Assembly: GCA_051294375.1 (NCBI GenBank)
Contig: CM119264.1
Span: 9,871,275-9,935,274, forward strand
Source of the DNA: Paraspadella gotoi
Taxonomy: Eukaryota > Animalia > Chaetognatha
Length of the DNA stretch: 64,000 nucleotides
Direction of reading: 5' to 3'
Below, piece after piece: positions 9,950 to 61,394 of this stretch (its first letter is position 1; every line of letters starts with the position of its first letter). Position numbers and translations under genes: made by a program. The notes below the pieces were generated by a model. The model saw only the letters and a program-made list of their open reading frames with translations, had not been told where the DNA came from and did no database searches.

Positions 9950-12900
9950 AGGAAGTTGCGCACACCTGAGTGATGTGTCTTGGGCCCACGGAGGAATCCC
10001 GCTCTTGTAGGCGGGTAACCAATATGGTAAGAGTGTCGGATTTTTGAATGGATATCACGAATTCTAAAACTGAAGGTCAGGATCGTAGATCGTCAATCGT
10101 TTTTTCAGCAGAAGTTAACCACGATCTTCGACATTCTTTTGAAACGAAAAGCTCAAAGAACTTTTCCAGGCGGAGCCAAATCCAATTGGCTCAGAGGGGG
10201 AAATCACACCCATCCGTAAGGGCGTGTGTTAGCATCCAACAGGATCATAAAACGGACTTACCTCTGATATGGCGCAAAAACAGGACGAGACCGATTGGTC
10301 CTATAAGGGTTATATCCGCGCCCAGTGACTGGATTGCGTCACTGAGGGTCGGAGCCCCCCAAAGCAACACGTGAGATGCCCCATTGCCCAATGGGATCAC
10401 AGGGGGCAACCCGGCTGTTTGCCATATCTCGTCTCTTATCTTTTATTTGCTACAACTCGTAGGCAGCGTACGACCTGTTTGTCCTTCCCTTGATCTGGGC
10501 AATTAGACCACTTATTGTCTTAACTTCCGGCGTGTAAGGCAACTCAATTCTGTTTCGATTATTATGGATCACGAAAGGAGTAAGCATGTACTAGTGCAGT
10601 CACGTGGATAACATTACAAGACTTGTGTAATCGTGCGCGTTTTCACCAATTGCACAAGAATTTAATAACTGAAGAATTTCATGGACGATACTGAGAATTT
10701 GCCGAGTTCCATTTTATATTAAAAACTGGCAAGAGTAGTCCTGTAAATCGCCTTTATTTTGGTACTTGTGTTAATACAATATACGGTGAAGTCATTGACC
10801 ATATAGAAATACGGTCGGCGATCAGAAAAAAATGTGGTATTTATCTTCGGTAGTTATTACTTGATTAGTTCTCTAAGTCAATTTATTGTTTACCACAAAT
10901 ACTAAGTAATACTTAATAAGAGCCTTGTCTGTGCTCAAGTGTAGCTCAGGTTATCAGTCGGGAAATGGCATGCATGAAAAACTTGAATTCTTTAACTTGT
11001 ATTCCTGGTTTTCCTCTTTTTCTCTCTTTTCGTCATGTTCTTGGTTCTTTCTCAATCCTTATTAGTCGATCTGGTTATTTTTATTTTGTACGTCTTTAGG
11101 TAGTTTCGAGCGCTGTAACTGTACTTGAGACATAAGATTGGACGCTCTTCGCCTCGTTCTGATTTCATTCATGCATAATTCGACTCAAGAGATTTAGAGA
11201 TTTCAAGAAGATTCAATTTTTTTTTCGAACGTTTAATTTATAAGGGGAAGGGCCGGCCCGCCCTGGAAAACGCGATGACTAATCCGAGTATATTCTGGCT
11301 ACAGAAATCAGCGGTCAGTCATGCCCTGTTATGAATGTTTATGAATAGATTTCCCCCGCCCCCGAGATAGTAATTATAGGTATACTTATCCCAGCGTCGG
11401 AAACCCGTTTTTTTTTCACGAACAGATGACTCAATTCTACAATTAATAGACCAAATAAAAAATAACAAATATTAGTAAAAGATGAAAAATAAGTACAAAT
11501 AAGCTATAAGGGTCAAAGCTTTATCACGCATAAAGTTGCAAATTTAGAGCACTCACTTGAAATATATTGAGGGAGAAAAGATGTGGGGACTGTGGACAAT
11601 GACATGACATAACAGATGACTTTGAACATGAAATTACAGGAGAATCATTATTGAAATTGGTACAACCAATATATAATTGTATAGTTCTCATTGATCGTAA
11701 AAGTTTTAATAAAAATAAGCTATCTTGCCCGACCTTAGAATATAGACAGGGGCTTTGGTGGTTTAAAGGCCCGACTTCATACACTGCTTACATTGATAAT
11801 TGAACAGAATCATTAACAGCAGGAGAATGCCCTGACAAGGCTATTTCAGAAATCAAGCTCTCTGCACACGCTCTCAGCACAAACTGCTCATCAACTCCTT
11901 CACATCGCTCACAAACAGTCTCGTTGATATCACGTTGTTCCCCAGCATGTACTTGGGTTATATTATATCAGCATATGATCAAGTTTAATAATGATACGGC
12001 CATAATTTTTGATATAATATTTCAAAGAATGTTTAATTGGTATGAAATATATTATAATTCAACAAACAATTCACAGGGTTTGGGCAGACATGATGAAAAA
12101 AGGTTTATATAATGGAGGGCATGAATACAGAGAATAGAGGTTACTTGAGATGATAAAGATTGAGAGATGAGATTTCAGGTGGTAAGCGGTCTTGAATATA
12201 TATCATCGAGAGGAATTCACAATTCAAGAAAGAAAAGAGAAACGAAAGGGCTAAAGCAGGATAAATCAGACCAATCGGAGATAAGATGCCGACACGGAGA
12301 TACCAAACCGGGAATAAATCTCACCATCATCGCTCATTGGGATCGAATAACCAGTGGCGCACAGGGCCTATGGTAGGAATTATATGATACTGATCTAGCA
12401 AAACAATGGAACGTTGTCTGTCATGCTAGGCCGGAATGATAATCCTCGCTTTGGAGAATTGGGGGTAACATAATATGGCTCACGTGGTCAACAAAATGTT
12501 TATGATATCAGCTGGTGAGCGAGTCGTTAATTTTTCTATTCCTGGGGGATTGGATTTTTTCTCCTTTTTGATTATATTTGCATTTTCCGAGAGAATTTCA
12601 ATATCGTCGAAACGAAAGCGATCGGTTTAATAAATTTTTCATCCTGGTAAGAAAAAAAATACAAGAAAAAATACTTCTATAAAAATAAAAAACGCTCAAG
12701 ATAAAATTCTTTACTTTTTTTGGTAAGAGGACATTGTCTTGTATTACTCGTTAAGGCCGTCAGTTTCAAATTAGGAATAATGAATCTTTTTTTTTCCCAA
12801 ACCTACCTCATAGACCTTTGTACCTCGTTTCTCAGTGGTGGGAAATTCACTTGAAAAGACAATATTTAAGTAGAAATCCATCAATCGAATGCGAAGAATA

Positions 12901-15900
12901 TACAATTTTTTTTTTTGGATTTCTAACTATAAATATAATATGTAACAAACCATAATTGTTTAGACGCTTGCCGCGTTTAAGAGAACCATCAATTGCTTGA
13001 GAGAGCTTTCAAAGAGTAAATAATTCTGGTTTTGGAAAGATTGTATATAAAGTATGGGGGTTTCAGGAGGTTCGACCCCTTTGCAATATATTTTGCCTTT
13101 CATCAAAAGTGCACAGAAGTGATAAATCTACTGAATTCCATAATTAGATCTAATTATTTTTTATTTCTCCTTAATTACCATATTATTATATTCCTACTCC
13201 AGTAGTTCTTATCTCAATAATCTTATATTTCTTATACTTAAGATCATATACAAAAAATAAAACTCTTTTACCTAACATATTCCTAATAGGTAGGGGTAGC
13301 GCAACATCAAGGGGGAAAAGAGGCAGAAGCACCAAAAAAATATTATCACAGGGCGAGTACATGCTAACAAAAAATTTACTTAAGTGTATAAAAAAAATAA
13401 ATGTAGATATGAAAAAAAAGACTTTCTTTCGTTGTTGTTATTTGGCGTTTATTGAGACTAAAGACCGAAATCTCTTTATACAATTCAACTTTTTAAGGTG
13501 CATACAAGTTTCGGCTTTCATTCAAGCCTCTCATCAGTTGAATGAAACCAAAACACTTGTATGCACATGTTAAAATAAAAATCGTTGATGTTAAAAGATT
13601 TCGTCTTTAATCTCAAATTAAAAAATTTAAAATTTAAACCAGAAATATTTTTAATAATAACTATAATTGAGTGTCATATATAAATTTAAGCAAAACTTTA
13701 TTTTAATTGGTTTGTAAAAAATAAAAAAAATTCCTTGAAAATTTAATGTGCTTTTAAATTTTTTTACTAGTATCAGATTGACCATAATTTTCTAAATCGT
13801 ATTGACCTTCTCCCCTCCTAAAAGAGAGTTTATTCTGGGTCTGTAGCACCCACAAGAAATGGGTCCTTTTTGGGAGAAAAACGACCTAATTCCTGCTACT
13901 TTATTTTTCTAAACTAATTTAGTTTTAATATCTAATGATTAACTCATAATCTTTTATCAAATTACCCTTTACTGAATAATTCGCTTTTAAAAGCCTAATC
14001 TGACTGTGCATTAGAGATTTACGTTAATCTAAAAAACTAAAACACCATATTGATTATACATGTTAAACCCTCACGATTAAACGCTTTAATAAACTAATGA
14101 GCGAGAAACAACATTAATTGCCATAAACCAAGTTAGATTACGCAAGAAAGAAAGACTCCCATAGACTAAATCCCAGAATACACAAGATAAATGGGTTCGA
14201 CGAAGATAACAACCAATTTCTTGTAACTGTGATACCCTTTAATTTTATGGGTTTTGTTAATAGTTTATTATAACTAATTTAAACCTCTAATCGGGGAGGC
14301 AGGAAATGGAGGCGCTTTCGAAAAATAGTTAAAAAACTTAATCTCTGTATTTTTTTGGGTAACACAACCTCAGACCACCCTTAGTAATTTTTATTCCTTG
14401 GAATAAAATGGCAACAATCAAGCTATATTCTCAACATGCGTTCTTAATTGGCAATTAGGACTTAGTAAACGGATGTTTACACCACCGCTCAATTACTTAA
14501 CGCGGAATCTCTTTATTTAAGAAGGATAGGTTGGTTGGCTTTTATGCGTCCTTATTGGATGCACTTCGCCGTCTCCTCGGATCTACTCTGCTTGGAAGAT
14601 TCATTTTTCCAAATATAAAATCATGTTATCCTACCTAATTTCTTCGGAAATTGGGATGTTGCGATGGTCAAATGATCGCATTGCATCTAGTTGGGTTTGG
14701 GAAATGTTGCTTTTGATGATCAGCATTTATAACGATTGAAGGTACTGCCACTATGATTAATTGGTCAACTGGATTAGTCGTTTCATAGTCCATTAAAGTC
14801 AGCAAAACAAATGTGCTTGTTCATTTTTTGAATAATGAATGAATGAATGATGAATGATGATGTTAATGAATGAAATGAAAATTGTTTATGTATATTGTAA
14901 CAAATTTTTGAATTTTGCTCGTAGTAAAAAAATATTTCTTAAATGAGTAGTATATGGTTTATCATTAGCATTAATAGTGTATCTTCAAACTTTTTAGCGT
15001 CTAAAACAAATATTTTTCTAATCATAATCTTTTGTAACATTCAATAATAAAAATGGTCTTTTCCAAGTATGTATACTTTTCCGCACTTTTAAAAAAAAAT
15101 TATATTTCAAAAAACATTTTTCCCCCCCATTTTCCGCCCGCTTTCTTCCCAACGTCTTAATCTTTTCGTATACCGCACATTGACATTTTATGACATGATG
15201 CCCTCAATTATTATAAATATATGTATCCTCATTAATGAAATTTATGAACAAATGCATATCTCATTTTTTTAATTTTATGGCCTGGCATCCCTCAATCATT
15301 TAAATTGATGACATTGCATATTTGGATTTTAAAGTAATTCTAATAGAATTTCCACGGTGAATATTGCCCAACAGCAAATTTTCTTCTCAAAAATCTTAAA
15401 TTTGCTTCACGTTTTTTCTCGAGTCCATGGCCCGCAACTTTTGGCTACAAACGTCCCGTCATCAATTCTTACTTTTGGACGAACGATTTGGGGGACGAAA
15501 ACTCTGGTGTTTGCAACCGAAGATCCGTTATGGTTCTTTTGCCAAAAAAACCTGACTTCGAAAAAAATAATAATTGGGGTTGGATTTTGGCGGAATTAGC
15601 GGGGATATGGTTTTCATTCAATAATCACTGGTACTAAATTGCCAGTGCGCTCCTTTTTAATCAAAAAGCAACGAAGGAGAGGAGCTGCTAGATTGGTTCA
15701 ATCTTCTGCTCCTGAGTCAAGGAGGAACAATGAAAAATTTTTGTTTCGGGGGGCGGGCTAAAGGCGGGCGACCTTGTTGCTGGATTTAGAATATTTGGAA
15801 ACTAAAATTAAACTCTAGTGGACAATGATCCTCTAAAGTCCGATAAAAAAAGTTTTATTTCTCAGGGAAATCACATTATGTCATTATCTCAAATTCTTGT

Positions 15901-18487
15901 GCACAGGTGATGATAGGCGTCTTAACACCTCCGAGCATTGCTCTGTTGAGAGTACAATACTTCTAGCCCTGTCCCAAAGTCTGGGGCAAGAATATCGGCT
16001 ACTTTTAATTGAATGAATAATTAATGAATGATGATTTTTTATTTGTTTGCTGGTACTTCAATTAATATGATATAAGGGTCCCTTAATATGTCGAGGTCGC
16101 GAAATTCTATTTATTTAAATGATTAGCCAATCTGTTAAATTTAAAAAGCTGATACATCTCGTTCTTTGGTTTTACCCTCTTTTTAATTTATTTTCCCTTT
16201 TTACCATCACAATTTCTCTATACTTAATTGAATATTTTGTGTTACACCGCACCAATTATGGGAAGTTTATCATTCATTTAATTAAGAAGGCTATCTTTGG
16301 CCCCTGACTTTTTGACCAGCTTTGGTAGTTTAAGGTCTCCCATCAACTCCCCTTTACAACTTCCCACATCAAAGACTCTCCACGCTCTCTCACTCTGCAG
16401 TCCACTAACTCAATTCACTCGCCAGAGGATCTGGTCTTAACTATCAAATGACGGTTGTATTGGTGTGTGCTTGGGTCATAATTCAGCGAGTAATCAAACT
16501 TATAATTTTCTATTCTCATTTTCTACATTTGTTTGGCTAGATAGTGGCCATTTGGATGCCCCGGCAATTTCAAATGGAACATTAATTAAATCTTCACGGG
16601 GGTGGTATAATCTCTCACAATGTTTTTCTCCTTTCAAAAATGTTTTGCCAAACAATTATGGTAGGTTTACCCCTTGTGCAATGCAATGCGTCCGGCTTTG
16701 ACTGTTGTTCCGTTCTGATATCTTTCTTTTCTTATAAGATTATTTAATATAATATGCTAGCCTAAATAAAGTTTTGCTCCTATAGAGATTCCACTTATGG
16801 TGCCCTATTCTGTTTTATTCAACTTGTCTTCTTTTAAGGGTTTTTACAAAACATAAGTTGATAAATGAATATTTGTAATATTTTTTTCTCGGTGATACGC
16901 ATCGGCGAGTTATATACCTAAAAACAGCAATCAATCAATCACCGGGGGATTAATTACGTCGAGAAAAAATGACCTAAACTTTCTACAAACTAGATCTTAG
17001 CGCCGTGGTCACTTTATATTAGATTCCTATTTATCTTTCTTTTTTTTCTTTTGGTTGTCGCTATTTATTTCTGACTGTGTCGGAATCTTGTGTAGATATT
17101 GAATTCCTAATCTGTTCCACAAGTAGCACTGCCAAATCTTTCATTATTACCCGAATAACCGACGTTTTTTTTGGTGGTAAAAAAAATGTACGCGATTTAA
17201 TCTCCTTTGATCCTAGTTATTTTTGTTGTCGGATACGATTTTTTTAGCGTGTTCTTTACCCGAAATTCGAATTTTGTATTGGAGAAAATACTCCTCACAG
17301 ATTCCTTTAGCATAGCGAATGTAGGGATTAACAATTAAATATTCATCTGAAATCACTAAAATTGTTATAGGGGGGTGGAAATGATAAATTTTTTAAAAAT
17401 GATGTAAAAGGAATATATATGAGCAATAAATTCACTTAAAATCTCTTTTAGGACATTTTGGGATAAAAATACTTTATAATACAGAAATTACGTTGTGAGA
17501 AAATTAAACCCAGGCATCCAACCTCTTCGGGAAATTATCTCCTAATTCCCAAAGATAGCGATAACGGCGATCCAACATAGTCACGGGCGTTCTTCGGGTT
17601 TGTAACACGATTTTACTGGGGCTGATTAGATACATCTCTTAGTATTCTTGTTACTCTGCACTATTAATTTTTGATTGTAAAAAAAAGTTCAGTGAAGGAA
17701 TTCTTATTGGGGTTTAGATTTCTCTTCTTTAACCGATAATCTCTTAATGTTCCTTTATGACTTAATCATTATATTTGTTACGTTTCTCTTTTCATTTGCT
17801 TTCATTCAAAAATTTTATATATTTTCTACCGTTATTACTATCTCCGCGTCTCACATTGGTCATGAAAATTATCCTTAATTTCGCATCTAAATGTATATTC
17901 CAGTTTACTCCTTTTTTGGCTTAATTATGAACCTTTTTTTTACCGACTCCAAGTAAAGGCTATTAAAGACGAAATGGATGCTTTTATTTCTAAGTAAAAC
18001 TTCCAACTGTATGAATCTCATTGTTCTCTACCTTTTTTCAATTTTTTAAGCTTAATATCCAAGTATTCTTCTTTAGTGTAACGATGATAGTAATCTGGTT
18101 CTATTTAATACTGGGACAATTTATATTCGTGAAAGAACTGCACAGATCTCACAATGGGCATTTCCCTACGTTTTTTTAATTTTCGTATACTGGGGGCATA
18201 GGTTCTTTTCTTTCATCATTCCCATTACAGTATATATTTTTATAAATATATATTTTTTCTGGAACAAAATAATTACGGTACATCTCAAGTAGTTAGAAGC
18301 CAATTCAACTGCGTTAACACAATCGTTTTCAAGAGTGTGCCGAACCCTTTCATTATTTAATTTTTCTCTCACATTCTCCATCCAATCTTTCCCTTTTTGT
18401 TTTACGACACGAATGGCGACTTACTTCTCTTGTGTCCTTTCTATTCTTGTTTATCTCTCAAGCTCTCATAAAATAATCGGACATTCT
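9950..18487 (+). other. Insertion-riddled duplicate of ~21250-27750 (3' LTR, intergenic DNA, MITE and most of the XK gene); probably raw long-read gap-fill rather than a pseudogene
   Basis: Collinear landmarks: 9964 ACCTGAGTGATG = 21261; twister core ~10290-10370; ATGGCAACAATCAAG at 14408 = 24677; TCAAGAGTGTGCCGAACCC at ~18329 = ~27682. About 6.5 kb is expanded to about 8.5 kb, mainly by single-base insertions affecting exons and introns alike, and it ends at an N-gap. Confidence 0.85.
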
Positions 18488-20243: not shown

Positions 20244-20839
20244 AAAAAGTTTTTTGAAGATATAATAATGGTCTTGAGCTGATGGTTTTACTCATTGAGC
20301 CACCGACTGAAGGTGACGTGCTCCTTAATGGGGTGAACTTATTGCAATGCCTACAACCATGAGATAAAAAAGAATTTTAAGCGGCACCTATTTTCTTAAT
20401 ATCTTAACATATTTTTAGTTAAATCACTAAATCGAGAAACGTAATCTAAACTGAATGTTTTCATTTTCTTCCTCTTCCACATCCCCTTCCTCGATTGTTT
20501 TCATCCTCGTCATTCTTCAAGTATTTTTTTTTTCCGCGTGAAAAGAGAAAAAAGTTGGTAAATGAAGATTTTCCTCATCCGCAAGCGACGATGAGAACGA
20601 CGACGACGACGCCACCTCGTGGGAAAAAAAAAGATAATTTGCGAGGAGCGTAAATCTCGCGTCTTCTTTCGGCGCGCCTTCGTGACGTCATAAAAACGCG
20701 TCATTGTTACGAGACTGGCGCTCGAGGGTTGGGCGAACTCTTGAGTTGGGCTGGCGACGTTACAAGAGCATTGGCGGGCGAGATTTTGCGAAAGCTCGAG
20801 AGATTAAAAGAGATGAAGATGTCCGAAATATTATGCTCG

Positions 20840-21095
20840 TGTGGCGGTATATTCACACCGCCTCACGTCCACCCACCTTTCAGCCAAATCTCATTGGCTC
20901 AGAGGGGGAACACACCATCCCAGGCGTAGTGTTCCATCCACAGTCCTAATGACTTCCCTCTGCGTTGGCAAAGCGAGACCGTCCTAGGGTAACCGCGCCA
21001 GTGACTGGAGGCGTCACTGAGGGTCGGAAGCCCCCAAAGCCAACAGTGAGATGCCCATCCCAATGGGCATCACAGGCAACCCGGCTGTTGCCATA
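20840..21095 (+). repeat. 5' LTR (256 bp), highly structured
   Basis: Matches 21289-21543 with roughly eight small differences by eye. Successive stems are GCGGT/ACCGC, GCCAA/TTGGC, CAGAGGG/CCCTCTG enclosing GGAACAC/GTGTTCC and AGTC/GACT, the twister domain, GATGCCC/GGGCATC and GGCAAC/GTTGCC. Confidence 0.9.
20964..21044 (+). ncRNA. Twister ribozyme candidate, type P5 (copy 1); predicted cleavage U20990|A20991
   Basis: Elements in order: P5 GUUGGC/GCCAAC; P2 GCG/CGC; L1 GACCG; short P1 UCCUAGGG; UAA cleavage motif; GC; P3 CAGUGAC/GUCACUG; A; P4 GGG/CCC; L4 UCGGAAGC. Pseudoknot T1 pairs L4 CGG with L1 CCG, and T2 pairs GC with the L4-terminal GC. Order and conserved nucleotides follow the twister consensus. 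Deviations are a very short P1 and a C-A mismatch at the top of P2. Confidence 0.8.
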
Positions 21096-21097
21096 AG

Positions 21098-21110
21098 TGG
21101 TGAGCCTACT
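21098..21110 (+). other. Primer-binding-site-like motif TGGTGAGCCTACT
   Basis: Begins with TGG (complement of tRNA 3' CCA) two nt after the 5' LTR. It resembles Arg-type (TGGCGAGCC) and Trp-type (TGGTGACCC) PBS; the primer tRNA was not determined. Confidence 0.55.
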
Positions 21111-21131
21111 ATCGAACACGCAACCTTCTCA

Positions 21132-21191
21132 GGGTACGCTACGACAAACGCCTATGCCCCTGGGGTACGCTACGACAAACGCCTATGCCCC
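21132..21191 (+). repeat. Internal 29-bp direct repeat x2 (period 31)
   Basis: GGGTACGCTACGACAAACGCCTATGCCCC at 21132-21160 and 21163-21191. Confidence 0.95.
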
Positions 21192-21288
21192 CACAACTCG
21201 CGCTCTCTCTCTCTCCCACTATGGTAACAGTCTTGTCAGACACCTCTCAGCGCTTGAGGAACCTGAGTGATGTCTTGGCCCGGGATCC

Positions 21289-21543
21289 TGTGGCGGTATA
21301 TTCACACCGCCTCACGTCCACCATCCTTCAGCCAAATCCATTGGCTCAGAGGGGGAACACACCATCCCAGGCGTAGTGTTCCATCCACAGTCTAACGACT
21401 TCCCTCTGCGTTGGCAAAGCGAGACCGTCCTAGGGTAACCGCGCCAGTGACTGGATGCGTCACTGAGGGTCGGAAGCCCCCAAAGCCAACACGTGAGATG
21501 CCCCATCCCAATGGGCATCACAGGCAACCCGGCTGTTGCCATA
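21289..21543 (+). repeat. 3' LTR (255 bp)
   Basis: Direct repeat of 20840-21095, followed by the TSD CTCG. Confidence 0.9.
21410..21490 (+). ncRNA. Twister ribozyme candidate, type P5 (copy 2); predicted cleavage U21436|A21437
   Basis: Identical to copy 1 except one substitution in the P3 loop (TGGATGC vs TGGAGGC). Confidence 0.8.
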
Positions 21544-22576
21544 CTCGTCTCTTATCTTTTTATTTGCACCGCGCGTACACCGTCTGTCTCTTGATCTGCC
21601 CCACTTATGTCTTAACCCGGGTGATAAGGCAATCAATTCTGTTCATATTTGGTAGAAAGGTAAGATGTACTAGTGCAGTCACGTGATCACTTGAAAACGC
21701 GTTCACATGACCAGAAATTTAATACTGAAGAATTCATGACATACTGAATCACTGATTGCCGAGTCATTTTATTTAAAACTGGCAAGGTATCTGTAAATGC
21801 CTTTTTGTACTTGTGTATAATAATCGTGAAGTCATATGACCATATAGAAATACGGTCGCGCGATCAGAAAAAAAATGTGGTATTATTCGGGTTATTCTTG
21901 ATTAGTTTAGTCAATATTTTACAAATACTAAGTAATACTAATAAGATGCTTGTTGTGCATAAGTGTAGTCAGGTTATCAGTCGGGAAATGCATCCATGAA
22001 AAAACTTGAATCCTTTAACTTGTATTCCTGGTTTTCCTCTTTTTCTCTCTTTCTCGCTCATGTTCTTGGTTCTTTCTCAATCCTTGATTAGTCGATCTGT
22101 TATTTTTACGTTTTAGTTTCGCTGTACTTGAGACTAGATTGAAACGTTTCGCTCGTTCTGATTACATTCATCATAATTCGACTCAAGAGATTTAGAGATT
22201 CAGAGATTCAAGTTTTCACGTTTAATTTATAAGGAACGGGCGCCGCCTGGAACGCGATACTCCGAGTATATTCTGGCACAAAATCAGCGGCAGATCATGC
22301 CCGTTATGATTTTATGAATAATTTCCCCCCCCCGAGATATATATAGTATATATACCATTTTTCACACAATGACTCAATTCTACAATTAATAAGACCCAAA
22401 TAAAAAAATAACAAATATTAAGTAAAATGAAAATAAGTACAAATAAGTAAAGTCAAAGCTTATCACGCATAAGTTGCAAATTTAGAGATATTGATATATT
22501 GAGGAGAAGTGTGGACTGTGGACATGACATGACATAACAGAGACTTGAACATGAATTTACAGGAGATCATTATATG

Positions 22577-22775
22577 AAATTGGTACAACCAATATAAAAT
22601 TTATTCATTAATTTAATAAATAAGCTATCTTGCCCCTGAATCTAGACAGGCTTTGGTGGTTTAAGGCCTTCATCACGCTTACATGATAATGACATAGCAG
22701 GTCCCTGCAAGCTTTCAATCAAGACTCTCTCACACTCTCACACTCTCTCACTCTCTCACTCGCTCACAACAGTCT
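22577..22775 (+). repeat. Short dispersed repeat, also at 26219-26380 (direct) and ~25975-26076 (inverted, with (TGAA)n tail)
   Basis: Shared GAAATTGGTACAACCAATAT...GCTATCTTGCCCCTGA...TTTAAGG...CAAGCTTTCAATCAAGACTCTCTCAC(ACTCTCTC)n. The reverse complement GGGGCAAGATAGC occurs at ~26029-26041. Confidence 0.75.
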
Positions 22776-24260
22776 CGTTTATTCACTCCCAGAGTACTTG
22801 GGATATATTATAATATGATAATTTAATAATATAATAATTTGATATAATATTTCAAAGAATGTTTCAATTGTATGAAATATATAATAATCAAACAAATTCA
22901 GGTTTGCAGACATGATAAAAAGTTATGGGCATGAATAAGAGAATAGAGTTACTTGAGATGATAAAGATTGAAGAGATGAGATCAGGTGGTAAGCGGTCTT
23001 GATATATATCATCGCAGAGGAATCAAAATCAAGAAAGCTAAATCAGATCAGCCAATCGAGATCCGACACGAATCCACCGGAAATAAAATCTAACTCTCTC
23101 ATTGGTCGATAAACCAGTGGCACGGGCCAATGGTGGAATTTCATCTGTCTGCAAAAACTTTGTCTGTCATCCGCTTGAATTGTATAAATTGCCACGGTCC
23201 ACAAATGTTATGTATCAGCGCGCAATTCTATTCTGGATTGATCCGAGAGAATTCAATATCGTCGAAACGAAGAGCGATCAGGTTATAAAATTTTTCATCC
23301 TGGTAAAAAAAAAAATAAAAAAATACTAAAAAAAAACGCAAAAAATTTTACTTGTAAAGAAGGCCTTACTGTTAAGCCGTCAGTTTCAATTAGAATAATG
23401 AATCTTTTTTTCAAACCTCACTTCCTCGTCTCATTGAAACTTGAAAGACTATATTAAGTAAATCTCAAGCCAGAATACAATTTTTTTGATTCTACTATAA
23501 ATAATAACCAACCATAATTGTTAGACCTTCCCTTTAGCGAACCATCAATCTGAGAGGCTTTCAAAGAAAGTAAAAATTCTGTTTGGAAGATTGGTATTGT
23601 TCAGGATCCCCTTTGCAATTTGCTTTCATCAAAAGTCAAAAGTGATAACTACTTCCTATTAATATTTTTATTCCTCTTCCTATTTTTATTCCTCTCAGTA
23701 GTCTTCTCATATCTTTTCTTTCTTAGTCTTAATCTCTTTTCCAACATATTCTAATAGTAGGGGTAGCCGCACTCAATGGGGAAAGCCAAAAATTTACAGC
23801 GAGTACATGCTCAAATTTCTTTTTAAAAAAATATGTGATTAAACTTTCTTTCGTTGTGTTTGGGTTATTTGAGATTAAAGACGAAATCTTTTACATCAAC
23901 TTTTTAAGGTGCATACAAGTTTCGGCTTTCATTCAAGCCTTCATCAGTTGAATGAAAGCCGAAACTTGTATGCACATTTAAAAATAAAAATCGTTGATGT
24001 AAAAGATTTCGTCTTTAATCTCAAATAAAAAAAATTTAAAATTTAAAACCAGAAAATATTAAAATAACTATAATGAGTGTCATATATAAATTTAAGCAAA
24101 CTTTATTTAATTGTAAAAATAAAAAAAAATTCCTTGAAAATTAATGTGCTTAAATTTTACTAGTACTGATTGACCATAATTTCAAATCAGTATTGACCCT
24201 TCTCCCTCCCTAAAGAGAGTTTATTCTGGTCTGTAGCACCCAAAAGAAAATTGGGTCCTT

Positions 24261-24600
24261 TTTTGGAAAACGACCTATTCCTGCTATTTATTTTTCTAAA
24301 CTAAATTTTAGTTTTAATATCTAATGATTAATCATAATCTTTTATCAAATACCTTACTTAATCCTTAACCCTAATCTGACTGCATTAAAGATTTCCTTAA
24401 TCTAAAACCCTAACCCTAACCGTTAACCCTTAACCTAAACTAATGCCTCACATTAATCCATAACCATTATCCAGCTCCCCATCCTAATCCCTAATACCAA
24501 AGTCCAACCACATTCTTTAAACTTAACCTTTAATTTAGTTTTTTAATCTAATAACTAATTTAATCCTCAATCGAGGCAGAAATGGGGCGCTTTTCGAAAA
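24261..24600. mobile_element. MITE-like element with ~24-bp imperfect TIRs and internal degenerate (CCCTAA)n
   Basis: TTTTGGAAAACGACCTATTCCTGC (24261-24284) pairs imperfectly with GCAGAAATGGGGCGCTTTTCGAAAA (24576-24600). The interior contains AACCCTAACCCTAACCGTTAACCCTTAACCTAA (~24405-24440). Confidence 0.55.
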
Positions 24601-24676
24601 TAGTTAAAAAAACTTAATCTCTGTATTTTTTGGTAACACAACCTCAGACACCTTAGTATTTATTCCTTGATAAAAA

Positions 24677-24985
24677 ATGGCAACAATCAAGCTATATCTC
24701 AACATCGTTCTTATTGCATTAGACTTAGTAACGGATGTTTACACCACCGCTCAATTACTTAACGCGGAATCTCTTTATTTAAGAAGGATAGGTTGGTGCC
24801 TTTTATGCGTCTTATTGATGCACATCGCCGTCTCCGCCATCTACTCGCTGAAGATCATTTTCAAATATAAAAATCATTATCCTAATTTCTTCGGAAATTG
24901 GATGTGCGAGTGGTCAATGATCGCATTGCATATAGTTGGTTTGGGAAATGTTGCTTTGATGATCAGCATTTATAACGATGAAAAG
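24677..24985 (+). CDS. XK-related protein (Xkr family), exon 1
   Basis: ATG in AAAAATGG context. MATIKLYLNIVLIALDLVTDVYTT carries the XK-type TM1 DxxTD motif, followed by two more hydrophobic helices. Donor AAG|GTACGT, phase 0. Confidence 0.85.
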
Positions 24986-25527
24986 GTACGTGCCACTAAT
25001 GATTAATGTCACTGATTAGTCGTTCATGTCATTAAAGTCAGCAACAAATGGCTTGTTCATTGAATGAATGAATGAATGAATGAATGAATGAATGAATGAA
25101 TGAATGAAAATTGTTTATGTATATTGTAACAATTTTGATTTTGCTAGTAGTAAAAAATATTTCTTAAAGAGTAGTAATGGTTAATGATAATAGTGTATCT
25201 TCAACTTTTAGCGTCTAAAACAATATTTTTCTAATCATAATCTTTTGTAACATTAATAATAAAATGGTTCTTTTCAGTATGTATACTTTCGCACTTTTAA
25301 AAAAAAATTATATTTCAAAAACATTTTTCCCCCCCATTTTCCGCTTTCTTCCAACGTCTTAATCTTTCGTATACCGCACATTGAAATTTATGACATGGAA
25401 TGCCTCATTATTAATAAATATATGTATCCCTCATTAATAAATTTATGACATGGCATCTCTCATTTTTTAATTTATGGCCTGGCATCCCTCATCATTAAAT
25501 TGATGACATTGCATATTGGATTTTAAG

Positions 25528-25820
25528 TTTAATTCTATAAATTTCCACGGTGATCATTCCAAGCAAATTCTTCTCAAAAATCTTAATTTGCTTCACGTTT
25601 TTCTCGAGTCATGGCCGCAACTTTTGCTACAAACGTCCGTCATCATTCTTACTTGGACGAACGATTTGACGAAACTGTGTTTGCACGAGACCATGTTCTT
25701 CAAAAAACCTCGACTGAAAAATTGGGGTTGGATTTTGGCGGAAATTAGCGGATATGGTTTCAATATCACTGGGACTAAATGCCAGTGCGCTCCTTTTAAT
25801 AAGCACGAAGGAGCTCTGAG
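25528..25820 (+). CDS. XK-related protein, exon 2
   Basis: Acceptor TTTTAAG| is phase 0 (an alternative in-frame AG lies at 25563). Encodes LLHVFLESWPQLLLQ, the XK-family ESxPQ signature. Donor GAG|GTCAAT, phase 2. Confidence 0.8.
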
Positions 25821-26382
25821 GTCAATTGCCAGAGAGACATTAAATTTTTTTGGGGGGGGAGGAGGGGAACTTGGTGCTAATTAGATTGAAATAATTAAAT
25901 TAAAATGTCAATGTTCTAATGTCGATAAAAAAATTTTATTCTCAGGGATCACATTATGTCATTATCTTGTGAGAGTGATGAAGGCCTTAAACCTCCACAC
26001 TGTTGAGTACACAGCCTGTCCAAAGTCTGGGGCAAGATAGCATATTTATTGAATGAATGAATTAATGAATGAATGATTTTTATTTTGGTGGTACTAATTT
26101 AATATATATATGTCGAGCGAAATTTTTTTTATGATAGCCATCTGTGAAATTTAAAAGCTGATAATCGATTCTTTGTTTACTTAATTAATTTTCCTTTTAC
26201 ATACATTTCTCATCTAATGAAATTGGTACAACCAATATGGAAGTTATCCATTCATTTAATTAAGAGGCTATCTTGCCCCTGACTTTGGACAGCCTTTGGT
26301 AGTTTAAGGTCTCCATCACTCTTACAAGCTTTCAATCAAGACTCTCTCACGCTCTCTCACTCTCTCACTCTCTCACTCCCAG

Positions 26383-28189
26383 AGGATCTGTCTTCACTAT
26401 CAATGACGTTTTTGTGTGTGCTTGGTCTATCAGCGAGTATCAAACTATAATTTCTATTTCATTTTCTACATTTTGTTTGGCTAAAGCGGCAATAGATAAC
26501 CGGCATTCGAATGAACCATTATTAATTTCAGGAAATTTAATTTTCCTTTCAAATGTTTGCCAAACAATAGGTTTACTGCAATGCATCGTCGGCTTGACTG
26601 TATTTCTCTATATCTTAAGTATAAGTAGCCTAAAAGTTTCTCCTTGGATCCTTATGGCCATTCTGTTTATGCCTTTAAGGGTTTTTACAACATCTGAACT
26701 GAATATGCTTTTTCGAGGATTATATAAAAACAGCAATCATCATCCGGGGATTAATTACGGAAAACCAAACTTTCTACAAATGATCTTAGCGCCGTGGGTC
26801 ACTATATCTCTTTTTTCTTTGGTTGTCGCTATTAATTTGATCGATCTTTTAGACTTCAGCGCAATTTACCAAAAAACGAGTTTTTGGAAAATCGTACGCG
26901 ATTATTCTCCTTTGATTAGATTTGCATATAGATTTACGTCTTTCCGAAATCCATTATTGAGAAAATACTCTCGTTTTTGCACGAGTGGGATTCAATTAAA
27001 TTCTCGATCACTAAAATTGTTGGGAAAGATTTTTAAATATGAAAAGGATTGCAATAATCTTAATCCTTTTAGATTTGGATATTTAATACAGAATTATAGA
27101 ACCGGAAATTATCTCCTAATGCGACCCGATTTTGGGTTGTACACGATTTTACTGCTGATAGATACATCTCTTAGTATTCTGTACTCCACTTTATTTTTGA
27201 TTGTAAAAAAGTCAGTGAAGGAATTCTTATTGGCGTTATTTTCTATTTTAAGTTCCTTTATTATCATTTACCTCAGTCTTTATCATTTTATATTTCACGT
27301 TAACATCGCGCACATTGGCAGAAATACCATTCGCTCAAGTATTTCCAGTTACCTTTTGCTAAAAACCCCAAGTAAAGCTATTAAAGACGATGATGCTTTT
27401 TTTCTAAGCCAACTGTATGAATCTCATTGTCACCTTTTTAAATTTTTAAGCTTAATATCCAAGTATTCTTCTTTAGTAACGATGATAGTATTGGTATTTA
27501 ACGTGGGAAATTTATATTCGAATCTCAACAAATGGGCATTACGTTTTTTATTTTCTATACTGGGGGGCATAGTTTCTTTCATCATTCCCATTACAGTATA
27601 TATTTTTATATATATTTTTCTGGAACAAAATACATTACGGTACAAAGTATTAGAAAAGCCATTCAACTGCGTTACATCGTTTCAAGAGTGTGCCGAACCC
27701 CTTCTCATTAAATTAATTTCTTTTTTCTACTTAAAATTCAACTTTTTTTATATATTTGGTTTATCATTACTGCCTTTTTTCAAATTTGTTTGTACGATGA
27801 TACCTTGCAATAAACGAAGCCGTAATATCGGCCTCAGAGTCCAAGCAATTCGAATTATTTTGGGTTGTCTCATATTTACTTTTGTTTATAAATTCACGAT
27901 GCATGTCCAACGGCCAAGCGAGCAAATTGATCACCTTATATACGCGAATCTGTCCCATCCTAGACGCGATCTCTTGGCTCGGAAGGCAAGAAATTCTTTC
28001 GAAAGCGAGTTCATTTCGCCCATTTACGATTTGTTGTACCCGTTGTTTATGGAGCAGAATGTCATTTCAAACGCAACGGCTTTTGTCGATGAAATAAACG
28101 AGGTTTTCAATAGATTTATCCAAAAAGGTCCCAACCTTCTAGTACTTTTATTTTTATTTATCCCTGCTGTAGTGATCTTGAGTTATTGA
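26383..28189 (+). CDS. XK-related protein, exon 3 (long multi-TM terminal exon); spliced CDS 2409 nt = 802 aa
   Basis: Acceptor ctctcactcccAG| is phase 2 and matches the exon 2 donor. Continuous with the 591-aa ORF, which has many hydrophobic segments. Stop TGA at 28187-28189; ATTAAA at 28241. Confidence 0.85.
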
Positions 28190-41009: not shown

Positions 41010-42371
41010 TCTCTCTCTCTCTCACTCTCTCTCTCTCTCGTCGTCTGACAGATTTTACTATCGCCTTTATTTGTACGAGAGGTTTCCCCCGAGCGCTTGT
41101 CGATTCCAGTGCCACAACTCGAAACCGAAGCAAAAGTGAAACACGACGAACCACGTGAACCTCGATCCCTGTCACGTGATCACCGGGCCGTGATCCCCCA
41201 ACCGTTTGGACCGACCCAAACTCAATCTCTTATTCGGGATATTCAATGCTCGACGTCGATCCGCCATCTTTGATTCTTAATCTCTCATCGTTGGGTCATC
41301 AATCCACGACAGATTGTTAAGTCCGAGAGCGAAAAGAAAAGAGTTTAGCGAAGCAAGGAAAATTGCCTCATCCGTTCATTTCTTTTTCAAAGTCCTTGTC
41401 GCCATTTTTAAAATATTTTTTCCTACAATTATGTATTCAAGTTTGGCGTGACCATTTAATTTTTTTCTGGCTACGATCTTTCAGCCATAACATATTGTAA
41501 ATTTCTCTCGCGTCTCGACTAAAAAACAACATCGCAGAACTCAAGAAAAAAAAAGATAATTTGATTAGCACTTTTAAAAATCTTAGCCAGTAAAATAATT
41601 TTTTTTTTTTTTTTTGGAAAAAGAAAGTCGCCATGAAAAAAAAAAATCTTTAACCCGTGATGAATGGAACAGTGGGAAAACAACATAATAGTAGGCGTCG
41701 GAAAAGAAAGAGAAAAAAAATGAAGAAAATGGGAGAATATTTTTCACGCCATCTCGAGTTGAACCGGGAGCAAACGTTCTTCTAACGACGATTTGATGTG
41801 AGAAGATCAAGGAACCATCCGAGTGAAGAAAAAGGCGGAGACGAGAATCACAACTGCGTTCACGGGATCGGAGGGGGGGGGATGGAGGTGGGGTAGAATG
41901 TTCGGGGAATGGTGGAGGTACTTTAAATAATATCCGTGGTTGGAGGCGAACCAGGTGGCGTGGGATTGAAATTGGAAAAATAGTTGGAAAACAGGACATT
42001 GAAAAGTTGCACATTCTTAAATTTTGCAGAAACCGTTGCTGTTGGAAGGGGTGAATCTGGTTAGAGAGCAAATGGCGTCGTCCCGGCTTTAAGTATGTAA
42101 AAGAATGACGATATAAGAAAAACGAAACAGAACTGATAATCTTAAACGAACGAACGAAAGAACGAAACACGTTATTTTCTCCTCTGGCGAACAAGGCTTT
42201 GTTTCTAAATCTCTCGTCGGCCTTCGTGTTGGCGGCCGGCCAGTCGGCCCGTCGGCCCCATCGGCCGGCCAGTCTCTTCTCGTTTCGCCCGCCAAGCGTT
42301 CCCCTCTATTCATTGTCTCGCGTAGACGTCCTTGGATCGAGGACGCGGGACGTCTTATAGGTGAGTTGGAC

Positions 42372-42772
42372 GAATGGTTGGAAGGCAGATTGGATTTGAA
42401 ATGAGATCGATTGTTGGATGGCTCATTGGATTTGAAATGAGATCGATTGTTGGATGGCTGATTGGAATTAAAATGAGATCGATTGTTGGATGGCTGATTG
42501 GATTTAAAATGAGATTGATTGTTGGATGACTGATTGGATTTAAAATGAGATTGTTGGTTGGATGACTGATTGGATTTAAAATGAGATCGATTGTTGGATG
42601 GCTGATTTGATTTAAAAAGAGATCGATTGTTGGATGGCTGATTGAATTTGAAATGAGATCGATTGTTGGATGGCTGATTGGATTTGAAATGAGATCGATT
42701 GTTGGATGGCTGATTGGATTTAAAATGAAATCGATTGTTGGATGGCTGATTGAATTTGAAATGAGATCGATT
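42372..42772 (+). repeat. 36-bp minisatellite, ~11 copies
   Basis: Unit GATTGGATTT(G/A)AAATGAGATCGATTGTTGGATGGCT, in phase from 42388 to 42772, with no spacers. Confidence 0.95.
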
Positions 42773-43970
42773 TGAATTTCGCAGATTTATTTTGTTGATC
42801 GATTTCGAAATTGTCATCGCTATGGAAATTTAAGCCGATAAATTTAGTACATAATGTAACATAAACAGACTACATCAAATTAAGAAAACTCAACCAGGCG
42901 TTCCGTCAGCGTGAAGAAACGTGAGATCAATAGAGACGAACTAAAATCGTCTGGGAAAATGGGAAACCACGAATGAGCCTTGAAAGAGTGGAATTTGTTT
43001 CGAGTGAGAAAATCCTCAAACCGAGAGAAACACATCGTTTCGTATTGAGAATCCGACCAGAACTGGTTCATAACAATTTAGAATAAATCGAAAACAATAT
43101 TGTTTCGTACGTGCGTTTAAATAGCGTCTTGAACCGACGACGTGAAACTTATCAGCCGATTGGGAAAAGAAAATCGAGGACAGAAAATTCGAGACTAAAC
43201 TGAAGAAAAGCAAACATAAAGAGGATTCGAAGTGGCGCCCGTCGAAGGTTATTATCCGGAATAAACTCCTTCAACGATCAACGCTCTTTTTCCTCTGTCT
43301 TCTCTTCCTTTCTCATCTCTCTCTTTCTCTTTCCTTTTTCCTCCACCTTTTCTCGTCTTCCTCGGTTGGGTTTTCTTCTTTAGAATTTAAATTTAAATTC
43401 TTATTTATATAATAACAATATTAACGCAAAATTAAATATGTAATAAATAAGTAATTAATAAATTTAATAATAAATTTATATTTTGATAGAAAATCCATAA
43501 ATTTTATGGGAGTTTAAAAGAATATCTTAAAAATTCGGTAGGAAGATAAGAATAATATCTAACTATTTTTGATCATTTTAAAGCAAAAATAGCGACATGA
43601 CTGTATCATTTGTTAGCTTTAGTCAATATTATTCCGGATAACTTTTTAAGGTTTTAATGTTTCCCGCAGCTTCATCAGTCGTCAGTAATGTGCTTTTTAA
43701 ATTCTGGTATAATATACTCAAACTTCAAATTTCTAATAACATTCCGTATCATAAAATATCTTAAATCCCAGAAAACTTAAACAAAAATCAAAAAAACAAA
43801 AACTATACAATATCGACTTCATGAGCCCCAATATTTTTTATCTTCATCTTCCTCTCATTGAGATGCGAAAAATGATGGTTGCGTTGAGAGCGCGCGTTTT
43901 AGAGCTAAAAATTTGGAGATTAAAAATCCAAAGAATTTGAAAAGAGAGGGAGAGAGTATGAGCAGGGCTA

Positions 43971-60553: not shown

Positions 60554-61340
60554 TACTTAGCAGGGTGAGTGTCAACTAAGTCAAATTATAATGGAAACTT
60601 TTAAAACTATGACAACCCCATTAAGAAATAAATGAAAATTTAATATTCTTTTTAAGATTCTGAAAGAAAAAAGCATAAATTGTTACTCTAGTAAAACTTT
60701 AAAGTTTTTTGGAAAAGAAAATTGAATTTTTTGTGCACTTAAATATTTGCTTGTCATGATTTTAGCAAGCATGCTTACAAAATTATAACACAAATATTAA
60801 TTCACCCATCACAGCCTAAAGTATTTATCTTTCTTTTCCTACAGGCAAAAGTAAACATTATTTTATGCTAGAGAGAACAGGATGTTTACTGAAATGAGCC
60901 GGAAACATTTCAACTTCTTCTTCTACTTTAACTGTCATTTTTTCAATAATAAAATAGGCGAATTTTTAATTATTTAACTCTCAGCAGCGCTTCACAAGAC
61001 ATAACTCTCGATAATATCCGCAATGTTAATGTAAATTTATTATATTTTTTACGCAGAAATCCTAAAATAAGCAGAAAGTTGTGGATTCCCTTCGCTCGTT
61101 TAAGAAAAAAAAATTAACTAGGCGAATTATAAGTTTGTAAGAGGCAAGGTCAGAATCGGCGAAAAATCTTAAAAAGGCGAGAATGTTATTGAAAAAAAGG
61201 GGTGGAATTTTGATGGGTTCCTCAGATTCTCTCCAAATGTGAGGTCCGATTAAAGCGAAACTTAAGATTAACAATATTCCCGTCATCACACATCTATCGA
61301 GTGTAAAAAATATAAGAAAAAAGTCACTGGCTTCTTTTTC
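59150..61340. mobile_element. Inverted pair B (~59150-59915) / B' (60560-~61340) with Tc1/mariner-like CAGGGTG termini
   Basis: B ends ...GACTTAGTGACACTCACCCTG|TA and B' begins CAGGGTGAGTGTCAACTAAGTC. The similarity extends ~770 bp. CAGGGTG next to TA is typical of Tc1/mariner-superfamily ends. No transposase seen. Confidence 0.55.
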
Positions 61341-61394
61341 TATAAGCGGCCTTCCTTATATATAAAGTTTAAGAATCCCATCTTACTTGTTTAT

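What the first reader, a model, noticed from the sequence alone, without database searches (positions are those of the whole stretch)
20840..21543. Candidate twister-ribozyme LTR retrozyme: a 704-bp non-coding LTR element with a self-cleaving ribozyme motif in each LTR
Seen: two ~255-bp LTRs with TG-type ends, a 4-bp CTCG TSD, a PBS-like TGG, no coding capacity, and a full type-P5 twister motif in each LTR. Known: plant LTR retrozymes have this architecture (4-bp TSD, Ty3/gypsy-dependent) but use hammerhead ribozymes. Described metazoan retrozymes are non-LTR tandem hammerhead repeats, and eukaryotic twisters are mainly linked to non-LTR retrotransposons. Inference: a read-through transcript would be cut at 20990|20991 and 21436|21437, releasing a 446-nt RNA. 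Its 5'-OH and 2',3'-cyclic-phosphate ends could be circularised by an RtcB-type ligase and reverse-transcribed by an autonomous LTR element. I do not know of a described animal LTR retrozyme based on twister, but cannot confirm novelty without a search.
Basis: partly seen in the sequence, partly recalled or inferred. Interest (0 to 1): 0.95.

Follow-up and report, generated by a model that had tools for sequence, protein, structure and literature searches.

The report
Twister-ribozyme miniature LTR retrotransposon
A 704-base, protein-free jumping element, found at many sites in this probably animal genome, carries a predicted self-cutting twister RNA in each of its two terminal repeats and would likely copy itself through a small RNA circle, a design so far described only in plants and with a different ribozyme.

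Summary
The element is real. It has two LTRs of 256 and 255 bp ending TGT...ATA, a 4-bp CTCG duplication and no coding capacity. Public contigs of the same organism show 113 (left end) and 169 (right end) contigs with unrelated flanks at exactly these ends in one run, and an inferred empty allele in that run. The primer site matches tRNA-Trp. Trp primer site, 4-bp duplication and TGT...ATA ends together are the published signature of CsRn1-clade Ty3/gypsy elements, the likely mobiliser. Each LTR holds every twister core nucleotide and both pseudoknots, one with two compensatory pair changes. Caveats: Rfam gives only a sub-threshold hit, P1 is a palindrome that pairs well only between two copies, nested folding prefers a blocked form, and the polypurine tract is weak. 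Cleavage, transcription, the 446-nt circle and an animal host are inferred, not shown. Seven literature searches found no animal LTR retrozyme and no twister in an LTR. The scan had not seen this element before; unchecked notes report similar palindromic P5 twisters in Naiad Penelope-like elements of other genomes. Verdict: a new variant of the LTR retrozyme/TRIM design, cheap to test.

The parts
20836..20839 (+). left target-site duplication CTCG
   Evidence: empty allele with one CTCG inferred from contig break points, table 8
20840..21095 (+). 5' LTR, 256 bp, TGT...ATA
   Evidence: ends fixed across many flanks, table 7
20964..21044 (+). twister ribozyme motif 1, type-P5 order: P5 20964-69/21039-44, P2 20973-76/20993-96, G45=20977, A46=20978, T1 20979-81/21025-27, T2 20997-98/21030-31, P3 20999-21005/21013-19, P4 21020-23/21032-35
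20982..20989 (+). self-complementary 8-mer in the place of P1: 2-bp hairpin in one copy (+3.6 kcal/mol), 8-bp duplex between two copies (-11.0)
20990..20991 (+). predicted cut site 1 (U|A of UAA)
   Evidence: position by analogy to characterised twisters (PMC8501958 sections 17, 19); untested
20991..21436 (+). predicted 446-nt monomer or circle
   Evidence: folds better than 100 of 100 shuffles, z -3.05 as a circle, -2.93 linear; existence not shown
21047..21092 (+). two hairpins at the LTR 3' end (also in LTR2)
21098..21106 (+). primer-binding site for tRNA-Trp, two bases after the LTR; 41-72% of depth carries one more C that extends the match
   Evidence: table 4
21112..21129 (+). second, 18-nt block complementary to the variable region and T arm of tRNA-Trp
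21096..21288 (+). 193-bp non-coding internal region with a 31-bp tandem pair (21132-21191) and a short CT run
21282..21285 (+). 4-purine run three bases before the 3' LTR (5 in some copies): at best a weak polypurine tract
   Evidence: table 4
21289..21543 (+). 3' LTR, 255 bp, TGT...ATA
21410..21490 (+). twister ribozyme motif 2, identical to motif 1 except one base in the P3 loop
21436..21437 (+). predicted cut site 2
   Evidence: as site 1; untested
21544..21547 (+). right target-site duplication CTCG
   Evidence: table 8

Best explanation
This is a non-coding miniature LTR retrotransposon (TRIM), dispersed at many sites of the genome, that likely borrows the proteins of a CsRn1-clade Ty3/gypsy element and carries a predicted twister ribozyme in each LTR, which would cut its transcript into a 446-nt unit likely to be closed into a circle. 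Shown: the LTRs, fixed ends, many flanks, the duplicated CTCG, the tRNA-Trp primer site and the twister core. Inferred: a transcript spanning both ribozymes is cut at 20990|20991 and 21436|21437. The product has no terminal repeat, so the usual first strand jump is impossible; ligation by a host tRNA ligase would let reverse transcriptase, primed by tRNA-Trp, run across the junction and rebuild a whole LTR. Integrase would then insert the DNA with a 4-bp duplication. More speculative: the two ribozymes share one 8-bp P1 made of their palindromes, so that a two-LTR transcript cuts well and the one-copy circle is spared.
For: Mobile family: loose ends with unrelated flanks pile up exactly at the LTR start (X3 80+33 contigs, X5 69+31, X9 24+6, X1 10) and end (X3 66+36+67, X5 36+52, X1 7), flank agreement 0.42-0.56; depth on the element is 10^3-10^4 times the flank (not a copy number). 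X5 contigs cross both junctions (filled); in X3 the left flank contig stops at 20840 and the right flank contig goes on for 25 letters past 21544 that are not the LTR, which fits an empty site with one CTCG (table 8; letters not shown, so inferred). Primer: a tRNA-Trp(CCA) gene (L018, ARAGORN) pairs with 21098-21129 at -41 kcal/mol; the next best of 6,318 windows is -32.6. CsRn1 signature: Trp primer site TGGTGA(G/C)CCCG, 4-bp duplication, ends TGT...ATA or TGT...AAA (PMC2582038 passages; PMC3630058 passages). Ten of 116 metagenome loci with AG plus this primer site carry the CsRn1 CHCC Gag motif; one checked has a gypsy-order Pol (L096). Twister: all core positions present. The four core departures from the rice twister that I looked up are each tolerated in the published mutant matrix: G44A 0.97, C20A+G35C 0.90, C26G+G48C 0.74, C27G+G47C 0.86 relative activity, against 0.17 for G47C alone (PMC5113685 supplement; values read off by column count). 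P1 is reported as not essential. Variants listed at 5% or more inside the ribozyme fall only in the P3 loop or remove the mismatched C of P4 (tables 3, 4). The monomer is unusually well folded.
Against: No cleavage, transcript or circle was observed. Rfam stays far below threshold and gives no P5 hit. Nested folding prefers a blocked form by 9-11 kcal/mol in one copy (P2 0.02, P4 0.01) and by 10 kcal/mol over the double twister in the two-copy fragment; pseudoknots are not counted on the twister side. The double-twister idea is weakly supported: it beats two single twisters by 15 kcal/mol and cross-copy P5 has probability 0.92 in 20964-21490, but only 0.14-0.53 when the RNA starts at the LTR start, and the shared P1 stays at 0.01 or less. 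The mutant values are single or double changes in another twister in a 2-h endpoint assay; combinations can be worse (G44A+G35C 0.25), and the further P2 and P4 pair swaps were not looked up. Low variation in the ribozyme (0 of 74 non-loop positions against 10 of 124 in the 5' LTR part, Fisher p 0.014) is not specific: the 3' LTR part is also quiet (1 of 51). No clear polypurine tract. A Trp primer site also occurs in BEL/Pao elements (L077). No autonomous partner could be read. The host group was not established.
Confidence: 0.55

Rival explanations
1. The twister is active but only trims the 5' end of a linear RNA, as twisters do at the head of RTE elements. The transcript ends inside the 3' LTR before the second ribozyme is complete, a short terminal repeat remains, and the element is copied like any TRIM, without a circle.
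For: Twisters define the 5' end of Perere-3 (PMC8501958 abstract and sections) and of RTE elements (PMC7761336 passage). Nothing here maps the transcript ends.
Against: The element has no AATAAA/ATTAAA and no TTTT to end a transcript inside the 3' LTR. The unit between the cut sites is unusually well folded, as reported for retrozyme RNAs.
Confidence: 0.2
2. The twister is a passenger. It came into the LTR from a longer element (an autonomous CsRn1-type family, or the tail of a Naiad Penelope-like element), is misfolded in this context, and the TRIM moves by the ordinary LTR route.
For: Nested folding favours a blocked form. Long contigs share only the twister and 3' half of the LTR at about 86-90% identity and have other sequence upstream (X3 record 13, 2,592 nt; X9 record 26, 1,998 nt, depth 214; table 8). 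Other sequences follow the same primer site (loose ends at 21106 and 21125). Unchecked scan notes place palindromic P5 twisters in Naiad tails.
Against: The core is intact in both LTRs and no listed variant touches it across the family; a cut site in the middle of each LTR is unlikely to be neutral (inference). None of 119 other AG + Trp primer sites had a twister upstream, so it is not a general CsRn1 feature.
Confidence: 0.17
3. It is a non-autonomous Penelope-like element whose partial tandem mimics LTRs (pseudo-LTRs).
For: Such a misfiling has happened (MRC1; PMC8557442 passage), and animal retrozymes are tied to Penelope-like elements (bioRxiv 10.64898/2026.07.22.740005 passages).
Against: Penelope-like insertions are variably 5'-truncated; here the 5' end is fixed to the base across 113 contigs in X3. 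A tRNA-Trp primer site follows the left repeat, and ends and duplication length match CsRn1.
Confidence: 0.04
4. The direct repeat is an assembly artefact.
For: The assembly is error-prone here: 10174-18367 is a 74-84% identical, insertion-rich second copy of 21330-27721.
Against: Independent short-read contigs of four runs from three studies hold the LTR, the internal region and the internal-to-LTR junction, and X5 crosses both flank junctions.
Confidence: 0.01

Closest known systems
Plant LTR retrozymes (Cervera, Urbina and de la Pena 2016, PMC4918200; passages read)
   Same: Non-coding, two LTRs each with a self-cleaving ribozyme, 4-bp duplication, primer site shared with a Ty3/gypsy family, well-folded unit between the cut sites.
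   Different: Twister instead of type III hammerhead; tRNA-Trp instead of tRNA-Met; CsRn1-type ends; no clear polypurine tract; 446-nt unit against 600-1000 nt; probably an animal host; circle not shown here.
CsRn1 clade of Ty3/gypsy (PMC2582038 and PMC3630058, passages; present in crustaceans, PMC3587641 passages)
   Same: tRNA-Trp primer site, 4-bp duplication, TGT...ATA ends.
   Different: No gag-pol; a ribozyme in the LTR, absent upstream of 119 other AG + Trp primer sites.
Animal TRIMs and Helenus/Ajax/Cassandra (Kojima 2024, PMC10886601; parts 1-3 of 6 read plus word search)
   Same: Under 1 kb, two LTRs, primer site, gypsy-dependent, 4-bp duplication in animal Helenus; a structured-RNA module sits in the LTR.
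   Different: The module is a ribozyme, not a tRNA- or 5S-derived promoter; no box B; the word twister does not occur in that paper.
Twister ribozymes, type-P5 order; T-variants of Schistosoma Perere-3 (PMC8501958 sections 3, 17, 19; PMC5113685 whole text)
   Same: UAA cut site, catalytic G, both pseudoknots, P2, P3, P4, P5; association with a retroelement.
   Different: Sits inside an LTR, twice per element, not at the 5' end of a non-LTR element; P1 is a palindrome; T1 is CGG/CCG instead of CCC/GGG.
Animal non-LTR retrozymes (PMC7229834 passages; bioRxiv 10.64898/2026.07.22.740005 passages)
   Same: Small non-coding unit bounded by ribozymes; some cut better as dimers.
   Different: Those are tandem type I hammerhead repeats without LTR, primer site or polypurine tract, tied to Penelope-like elements.

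Membership tests
Twister ribozyme | UAA in L1 with the U-A cut site; catalytic G45 and A46 | tested here: met
   20990-92, 20977, 20978 and +446
Twister ribozyme | Pseudoknot T1 (3 Watson-Crick pairs plus A28.A46) and T2 (GC/GC) | tested here: met
   two T1 pairs are compensatory swaps that are active in the published matrix
Twister ribozyme | Helices P2 and P4, loop L4 with U24 and A29 | tested here: met
   3 of 4 pairs each; the two mismatches are tolerated in the rice twister
Twister ribozyme | Helix P1 | tested here: inconclusive
   2 bp in one copy, 8 bp between copies; reported as dispensable or giving inefficient cleavage when absent
Twister ribozyme | Rfam model at gathering score | tested here: not met
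   24.1 and 15.2 bits on twister-P1 against 67.2; no P5 hit
Twister ribozyme | Self-cleavage at the U-A bond | not testable with these tools
   needs in vitro transcription
TRIM | Under 1 kb, two LTRs, non-coding, dispersed copies with fixed ends | tested here: met
TRIM | Primer-binding site | tested here: met
TRIM | Polypurine tract before the 3' LTR | tested here: inconclusive
   only 4-5 purines at 21282-21285; other Trp-primed elements show 7-16
CsRn1-clade gypsy (as mobiliser) | tRNA-Trp primer site, 4-bp duplication, TGT...ATA/AAA ends | tested here: met
   the duplication is seen at one site only
CsRn1-clade gypsy (as mobiliser) | Autonomous partner with CHCC Gag in the same genome | not testable with these tools
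   no genome held; no Pol match in the window
Plant LTR retrozyme | Ribozyme in each LTR, 4-bp duplication, non-coding, stable monomer fold | tested here: met
Plant LTR retrozyme | Type III hammerhead and tRNA-Met primer site | tested here: not met
   twister and tRNA-Trp; so it works like, but is not a member of, the described family
Plant LTR retrozyme | Circular RNA accumulates | not testable with these tools
   only contigs were available, and a circle junction lies inside the repeat
Helenus (tRNA-promoter TRIM) | Box A (TRGCY..YGG) and box B (GGTTC) in the LTR | tested here: not met
   a box-A-like 11-mer at 20895, no box B; no tRNA hit
Animal non-LTR retrozyme / Penelope pseudo-LTR | Tandem or 5'-truncated copies, no primer site, type I hammerhead | tested here: not met
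   fixed ends and a primer site

The most novel reading that the evidence does not exclude
The first animal LTR retrozyme and the first built on a twister: a CsRn1-dependent element whose two ribozymes swap strands and share one palindromic P1, so that only a full two-LTR transcript is cut and the resulting circle is protected. Longer family members seen in the contigs may be an autonomous gypsy with the same ribozyme in its LTR, or the Penelope-like donor of the module.
Probability: 0.3. Interest if true: 0.88.

Novelty: new variant of a known kind. Interest (0 to 1): 0.72.

Why it matters
The papers read here divide retrozymes into plant LTR elements with type III hammerheads and animal non-LTR tandem repeats with type I hammerheads. 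A gypsy-dependent LTR element with a twister would show that the ribozyme-and-circle route arose again, with another ribozyme, another primer tRNA and another gypsy clade. It would give twisters a second genomic role besides trimming non-LTR elements. It is a small, abundant and apparently polymorphic family, so one transcription gel and one northern blot can test it.

Tried and rejected
No whole genome is held, so copies and their duplications could not be counted. Expression: no RNA holder listed; X9 is RNA only by guess and was not used as evidence. A direct view of the empty allele was not obtained. The twister-core pattern found nothing in JGI metagenomes or IMG/VR. A 16-nt primer-region pattern in IMG/VR gave 16 matches with no tRNA; a longer one gave none; 69 IMG/VR primer-site matches were not examined. 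L021 and L022 (Trp primer sites in G001) show no ribozyme. Rfam at E 0.05 on 20 of the 116 metagenome loci found no ribozyme. Host placement failed: no homologue of the 628-aa ORF or the XK-like fragment; 1 of 140 ORFs scanned had a Pfam hit, below cut-off; the protein atlas did not answer. The P5 coordinates were off by one and were redone. Rejected: minus-strand reading (no primer site after either repeat); Tf1-type self-priming (the site matches a tRNA); Helenus membership; dating by LTR identity; reading 10174-18367 as an old paralogue. For the Fisher test I kept 10 well-covered variant positions and dropped low-depth rows (20873-20891, 21371-21391) and 20950, which look like errors of the window; 2 rows of that table were not shown. 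Roth et al. 2014 is not held. The CsRn1_Cv1 sequence supplement is an unreadable .doc; bioRxiv supplements were not seen.

Full report
1. Observation. The element spans 20840-21543: LTR1 20840-21095, a 193-bp interior, LTR2 21289-21543, with CTCG on both sides. The LTRs agree in 249 of 258 columns and end TGT...ATA. No frame on either strand is open for more than 90 codons. The assembly is noisy here: a 74-84% identical, insertion-rich copy of the right LTR and flank lies at 10174-18367, and several bases of the window's LTRs are contradicted by most short-read contigs (for example 20891, 20950, 21492). LTR identity therefore gives no age.

2. It is a dispersed family with fixed ends. No genome is held. 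Thirteen of 15 listed runs hold part of the element, nine of them from organism A in three studies. I laid four (X1, X3, X5, X9). Depth on the element is three to four orders above the flanks; the tool warns that this is no copy number. Loose ends with unrelated flanks collect exactly at the LTR start (113 contigs in X3, 100 in X5, 30 in X9, 10 in X1) and the LTR end (169 in X3, 88 in X5, 7 in X1); 797 further rows were not shown. X5 contigs run across both junctions of this locus. In X3 the left flank contig stops at 20840, and the right flank contig continues 25 letters beyond 21544 without matching the LTR. An empty site with a single CTCG predicts this: 25 flank letters plus CTCGT make the 30-letter overlap between contigs. 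The letters were not displayed and are fewer than the tool's 31-letter bridging rule, so the empty allele is inferred. It points to an insertion polymorphism and a true 4-bp duplication.

3. Primer site and partner. Two bases after LTR1 lies a site complementary to the 3' end of tRNA-Trp, followed by an 18-nt block complementary to its T arm. I found the tRNA with a pattern that held that block, so the block matches by construction; the Trp call and the last four bases of the 3'-end match are independent. The duplex is the best of 6,318 windows (-41 against -32.6 kcal/mol). The CsRn1 clade of Ty3/gypsy is described with this primer site, a 4-bp duplication and ends changed to TGT...ATA or TGT...AAA (PMC2582038; PMC3630058); all three fit. 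Among 116 metagenome loci with AG plus a 16-nt Trp site, ten carry the CsRn1 CHCC motif and one tested has a gypsy-order Pol. One other is BEL/Pao (L077), so the primer site alone does not decide; the ends and duplication length do. The polypurine tract is weak. No Pol match lies in the window. The animal host rests on this signature, a weak XK-related hit and the look of the DNA; direct placement failed.

4. The ribozyme. In the numbering of the rice twister (PMC5113685) each LTR has U6-A7-A8, G45, A46, U24, A28, A29, T2 as GC/GC, T1 as CGG/CCG, a 7-bp P3 and a 6-bp P5. P2 and P4 each have three pairs and one mismatch. The published matrix gives 0.97, 0.90, 0.74 and 0.86 for the two mismatches and two T1 swaps, read off by counting columns; it is a 2-h endpoint assay on another twister. 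A descriptor finds the motif in 1 of 10,000 shuffles. Rfam does not recognise it at threshold. Family variants at 5% or more spare the core, though the 3' LTR part is also conserved. P1 is a palindrome: +3.6 kcal/mol as a hairpin, -11.0 as a duplex of two copies. In a single copy nested folding uses its G run to block P2 and P4; taking the palindrome away raises P2 from 0.02 to 0.49. A strand-swapped double twister is 15 kcal/mol better than two single ones and 10 worse than the blocked fold, and is not favoured when the RNA starts at the LTR start. These models omit both pseudoknots. The dimer idea is a hypothesis, with precedent in dimeric hammerheads. I noted it before seeing that unchecked scan notes propose the same for Naiad tails.

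5. Is the twister a clade feature? None of 119 primer sites in the 116 loci had a twister within 700 nt upstream on the sense strand; 61 of the 119 had a eukaryote-like extended site and at least 250 nt upstream, and many of the rest are probably chance bacterial matches. The pattern required a longer primer site than this element has. The core pattern is absent from JGI metagenomes and IMG/VR. The ribozyme looks like a lineage-specific gain. Longer contigs sharing only the twister half of the LTR could be a partner or a donor.

6. Mechanism. Shown: architecture, many sites, primer site, twister core. Inferred in order of falling confidence: gypsy-driven integration (about 0.9); cleavage (about 0.75); release and ligation of a unit of about 446 nt and copying across the junction (about 0.55 overall); cross-copy folding (about 0.3). 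The unit folds better than all 100 shuffles as a circle (z -3.05) and as a line (z -2.93). The logic for a circle is that double cleavage removes the terminal repeat needed for the first strand jump (established LTR biology, summarised); the model itself is that of plant retrozymes.

7. Novelty. Searches on ribozymes and LTR elements returned plant hammerhead LTR retrozymes, animal non-LTR hammerhead retrozymes and twisters of non-LTR elements; none of the listings, and none of the passages read, describes an animal LTR retrozyme or a twister in an LTR. A 2026 preprint still keeps the plant/animal split. The library lacks most subscription papers, and Repbase and Dfam were not searchable, so the family may be catalogued without its ribozyme. 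The scan has no look-alike sequence and no note on this genome. It works like an LTR retrozyme but fails two defining features of the described family, so I file it as a new variant.

8. Papers seen: PMC5113685 whole text, supplement part 10 and two supplement searches; PMC8501958 abstract and sections 3, 17, 19; PMC10886601 parts 1-3 of 6 and a word search; passages only for PMC4918200, PMC7761336, PMC6765202, PMC3587641, PMC3630058, PMC2582038, PMC10085705, PMC11722881, PMC7229834, PMC13725137, PMC8557442 and bioRxiv 10.64898/2026.07.22.740005. Recalled, from no call: that XK-related proteins are animal; the position of P1, P2 and P4 pairs in the rice numbering, which the mutant matrix then bore out for T1.

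9. Verdict. Observation confirmed, interpretation partly supported and sharpened. Interest 0.72; best explanation 0.55; most novel reading 0.30.

Noticed in passing
window 10174-18367 against 21330-27721: A 74-84% identical, insertion-rich second copy that includes the 3' LTR and its right flank, with traces of the internal end near 9960-10010. It looks like an unpolished long read of the same locus, not a paralogue.
   Followed up: partly
window 26303-28189 and 25507-25884 (+): A 628-codon hydrophobic reading frame with no homologue in two searches, preceded by a fragment with a weak XK-related Pfam hit (E 4e-4, below cut-off).
   Followed up: partly
L071 1-1123: Tandem non-coding units of 380-436 bp, each with a tRNA-Trp primer site and what looks by eye like a tRNA-derived stretch in the repeat: possibly a tandem Helenus-type TRIM. 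Rfam found no tRNA there. L070 and L030 look similar.
   Followed up: partly
L017 / L021, L061, L092, L101: Trp primer sites whose complementarity to the tRNA runs well past 18 nt, up to 39 nt. The window's element has this long match with its middle replaced.
   Followed up: partly
table 8: X9 records 26 and 27, X3 record 13, X1 record 4: Contigs of 0.6-3.7 kb that share only the twister and 3' half of the LTR at about 86-90% identity: another LTR subfamily, an autonomous partner or a donor element.
   Followed up: no
L017, L018, L022 (genome contigs): Contigs filed under bacterial genomes that hold a eukaryote-type tRNA-Trp, a Pao peptidase frame and a viral fusion-glycoprotein frame: likely eukaryotic contamination.
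   Followed up: no
window 42089-42829 (-): A 246-codon frame made of a 12-residue repeat (36-bp tandem array), no Pfam hit.
   Followed up: no
window 58468-59915 against 59979-61356: An inverted duplication of about 1.4 kb at 80-83% identity.
   Followed up: no
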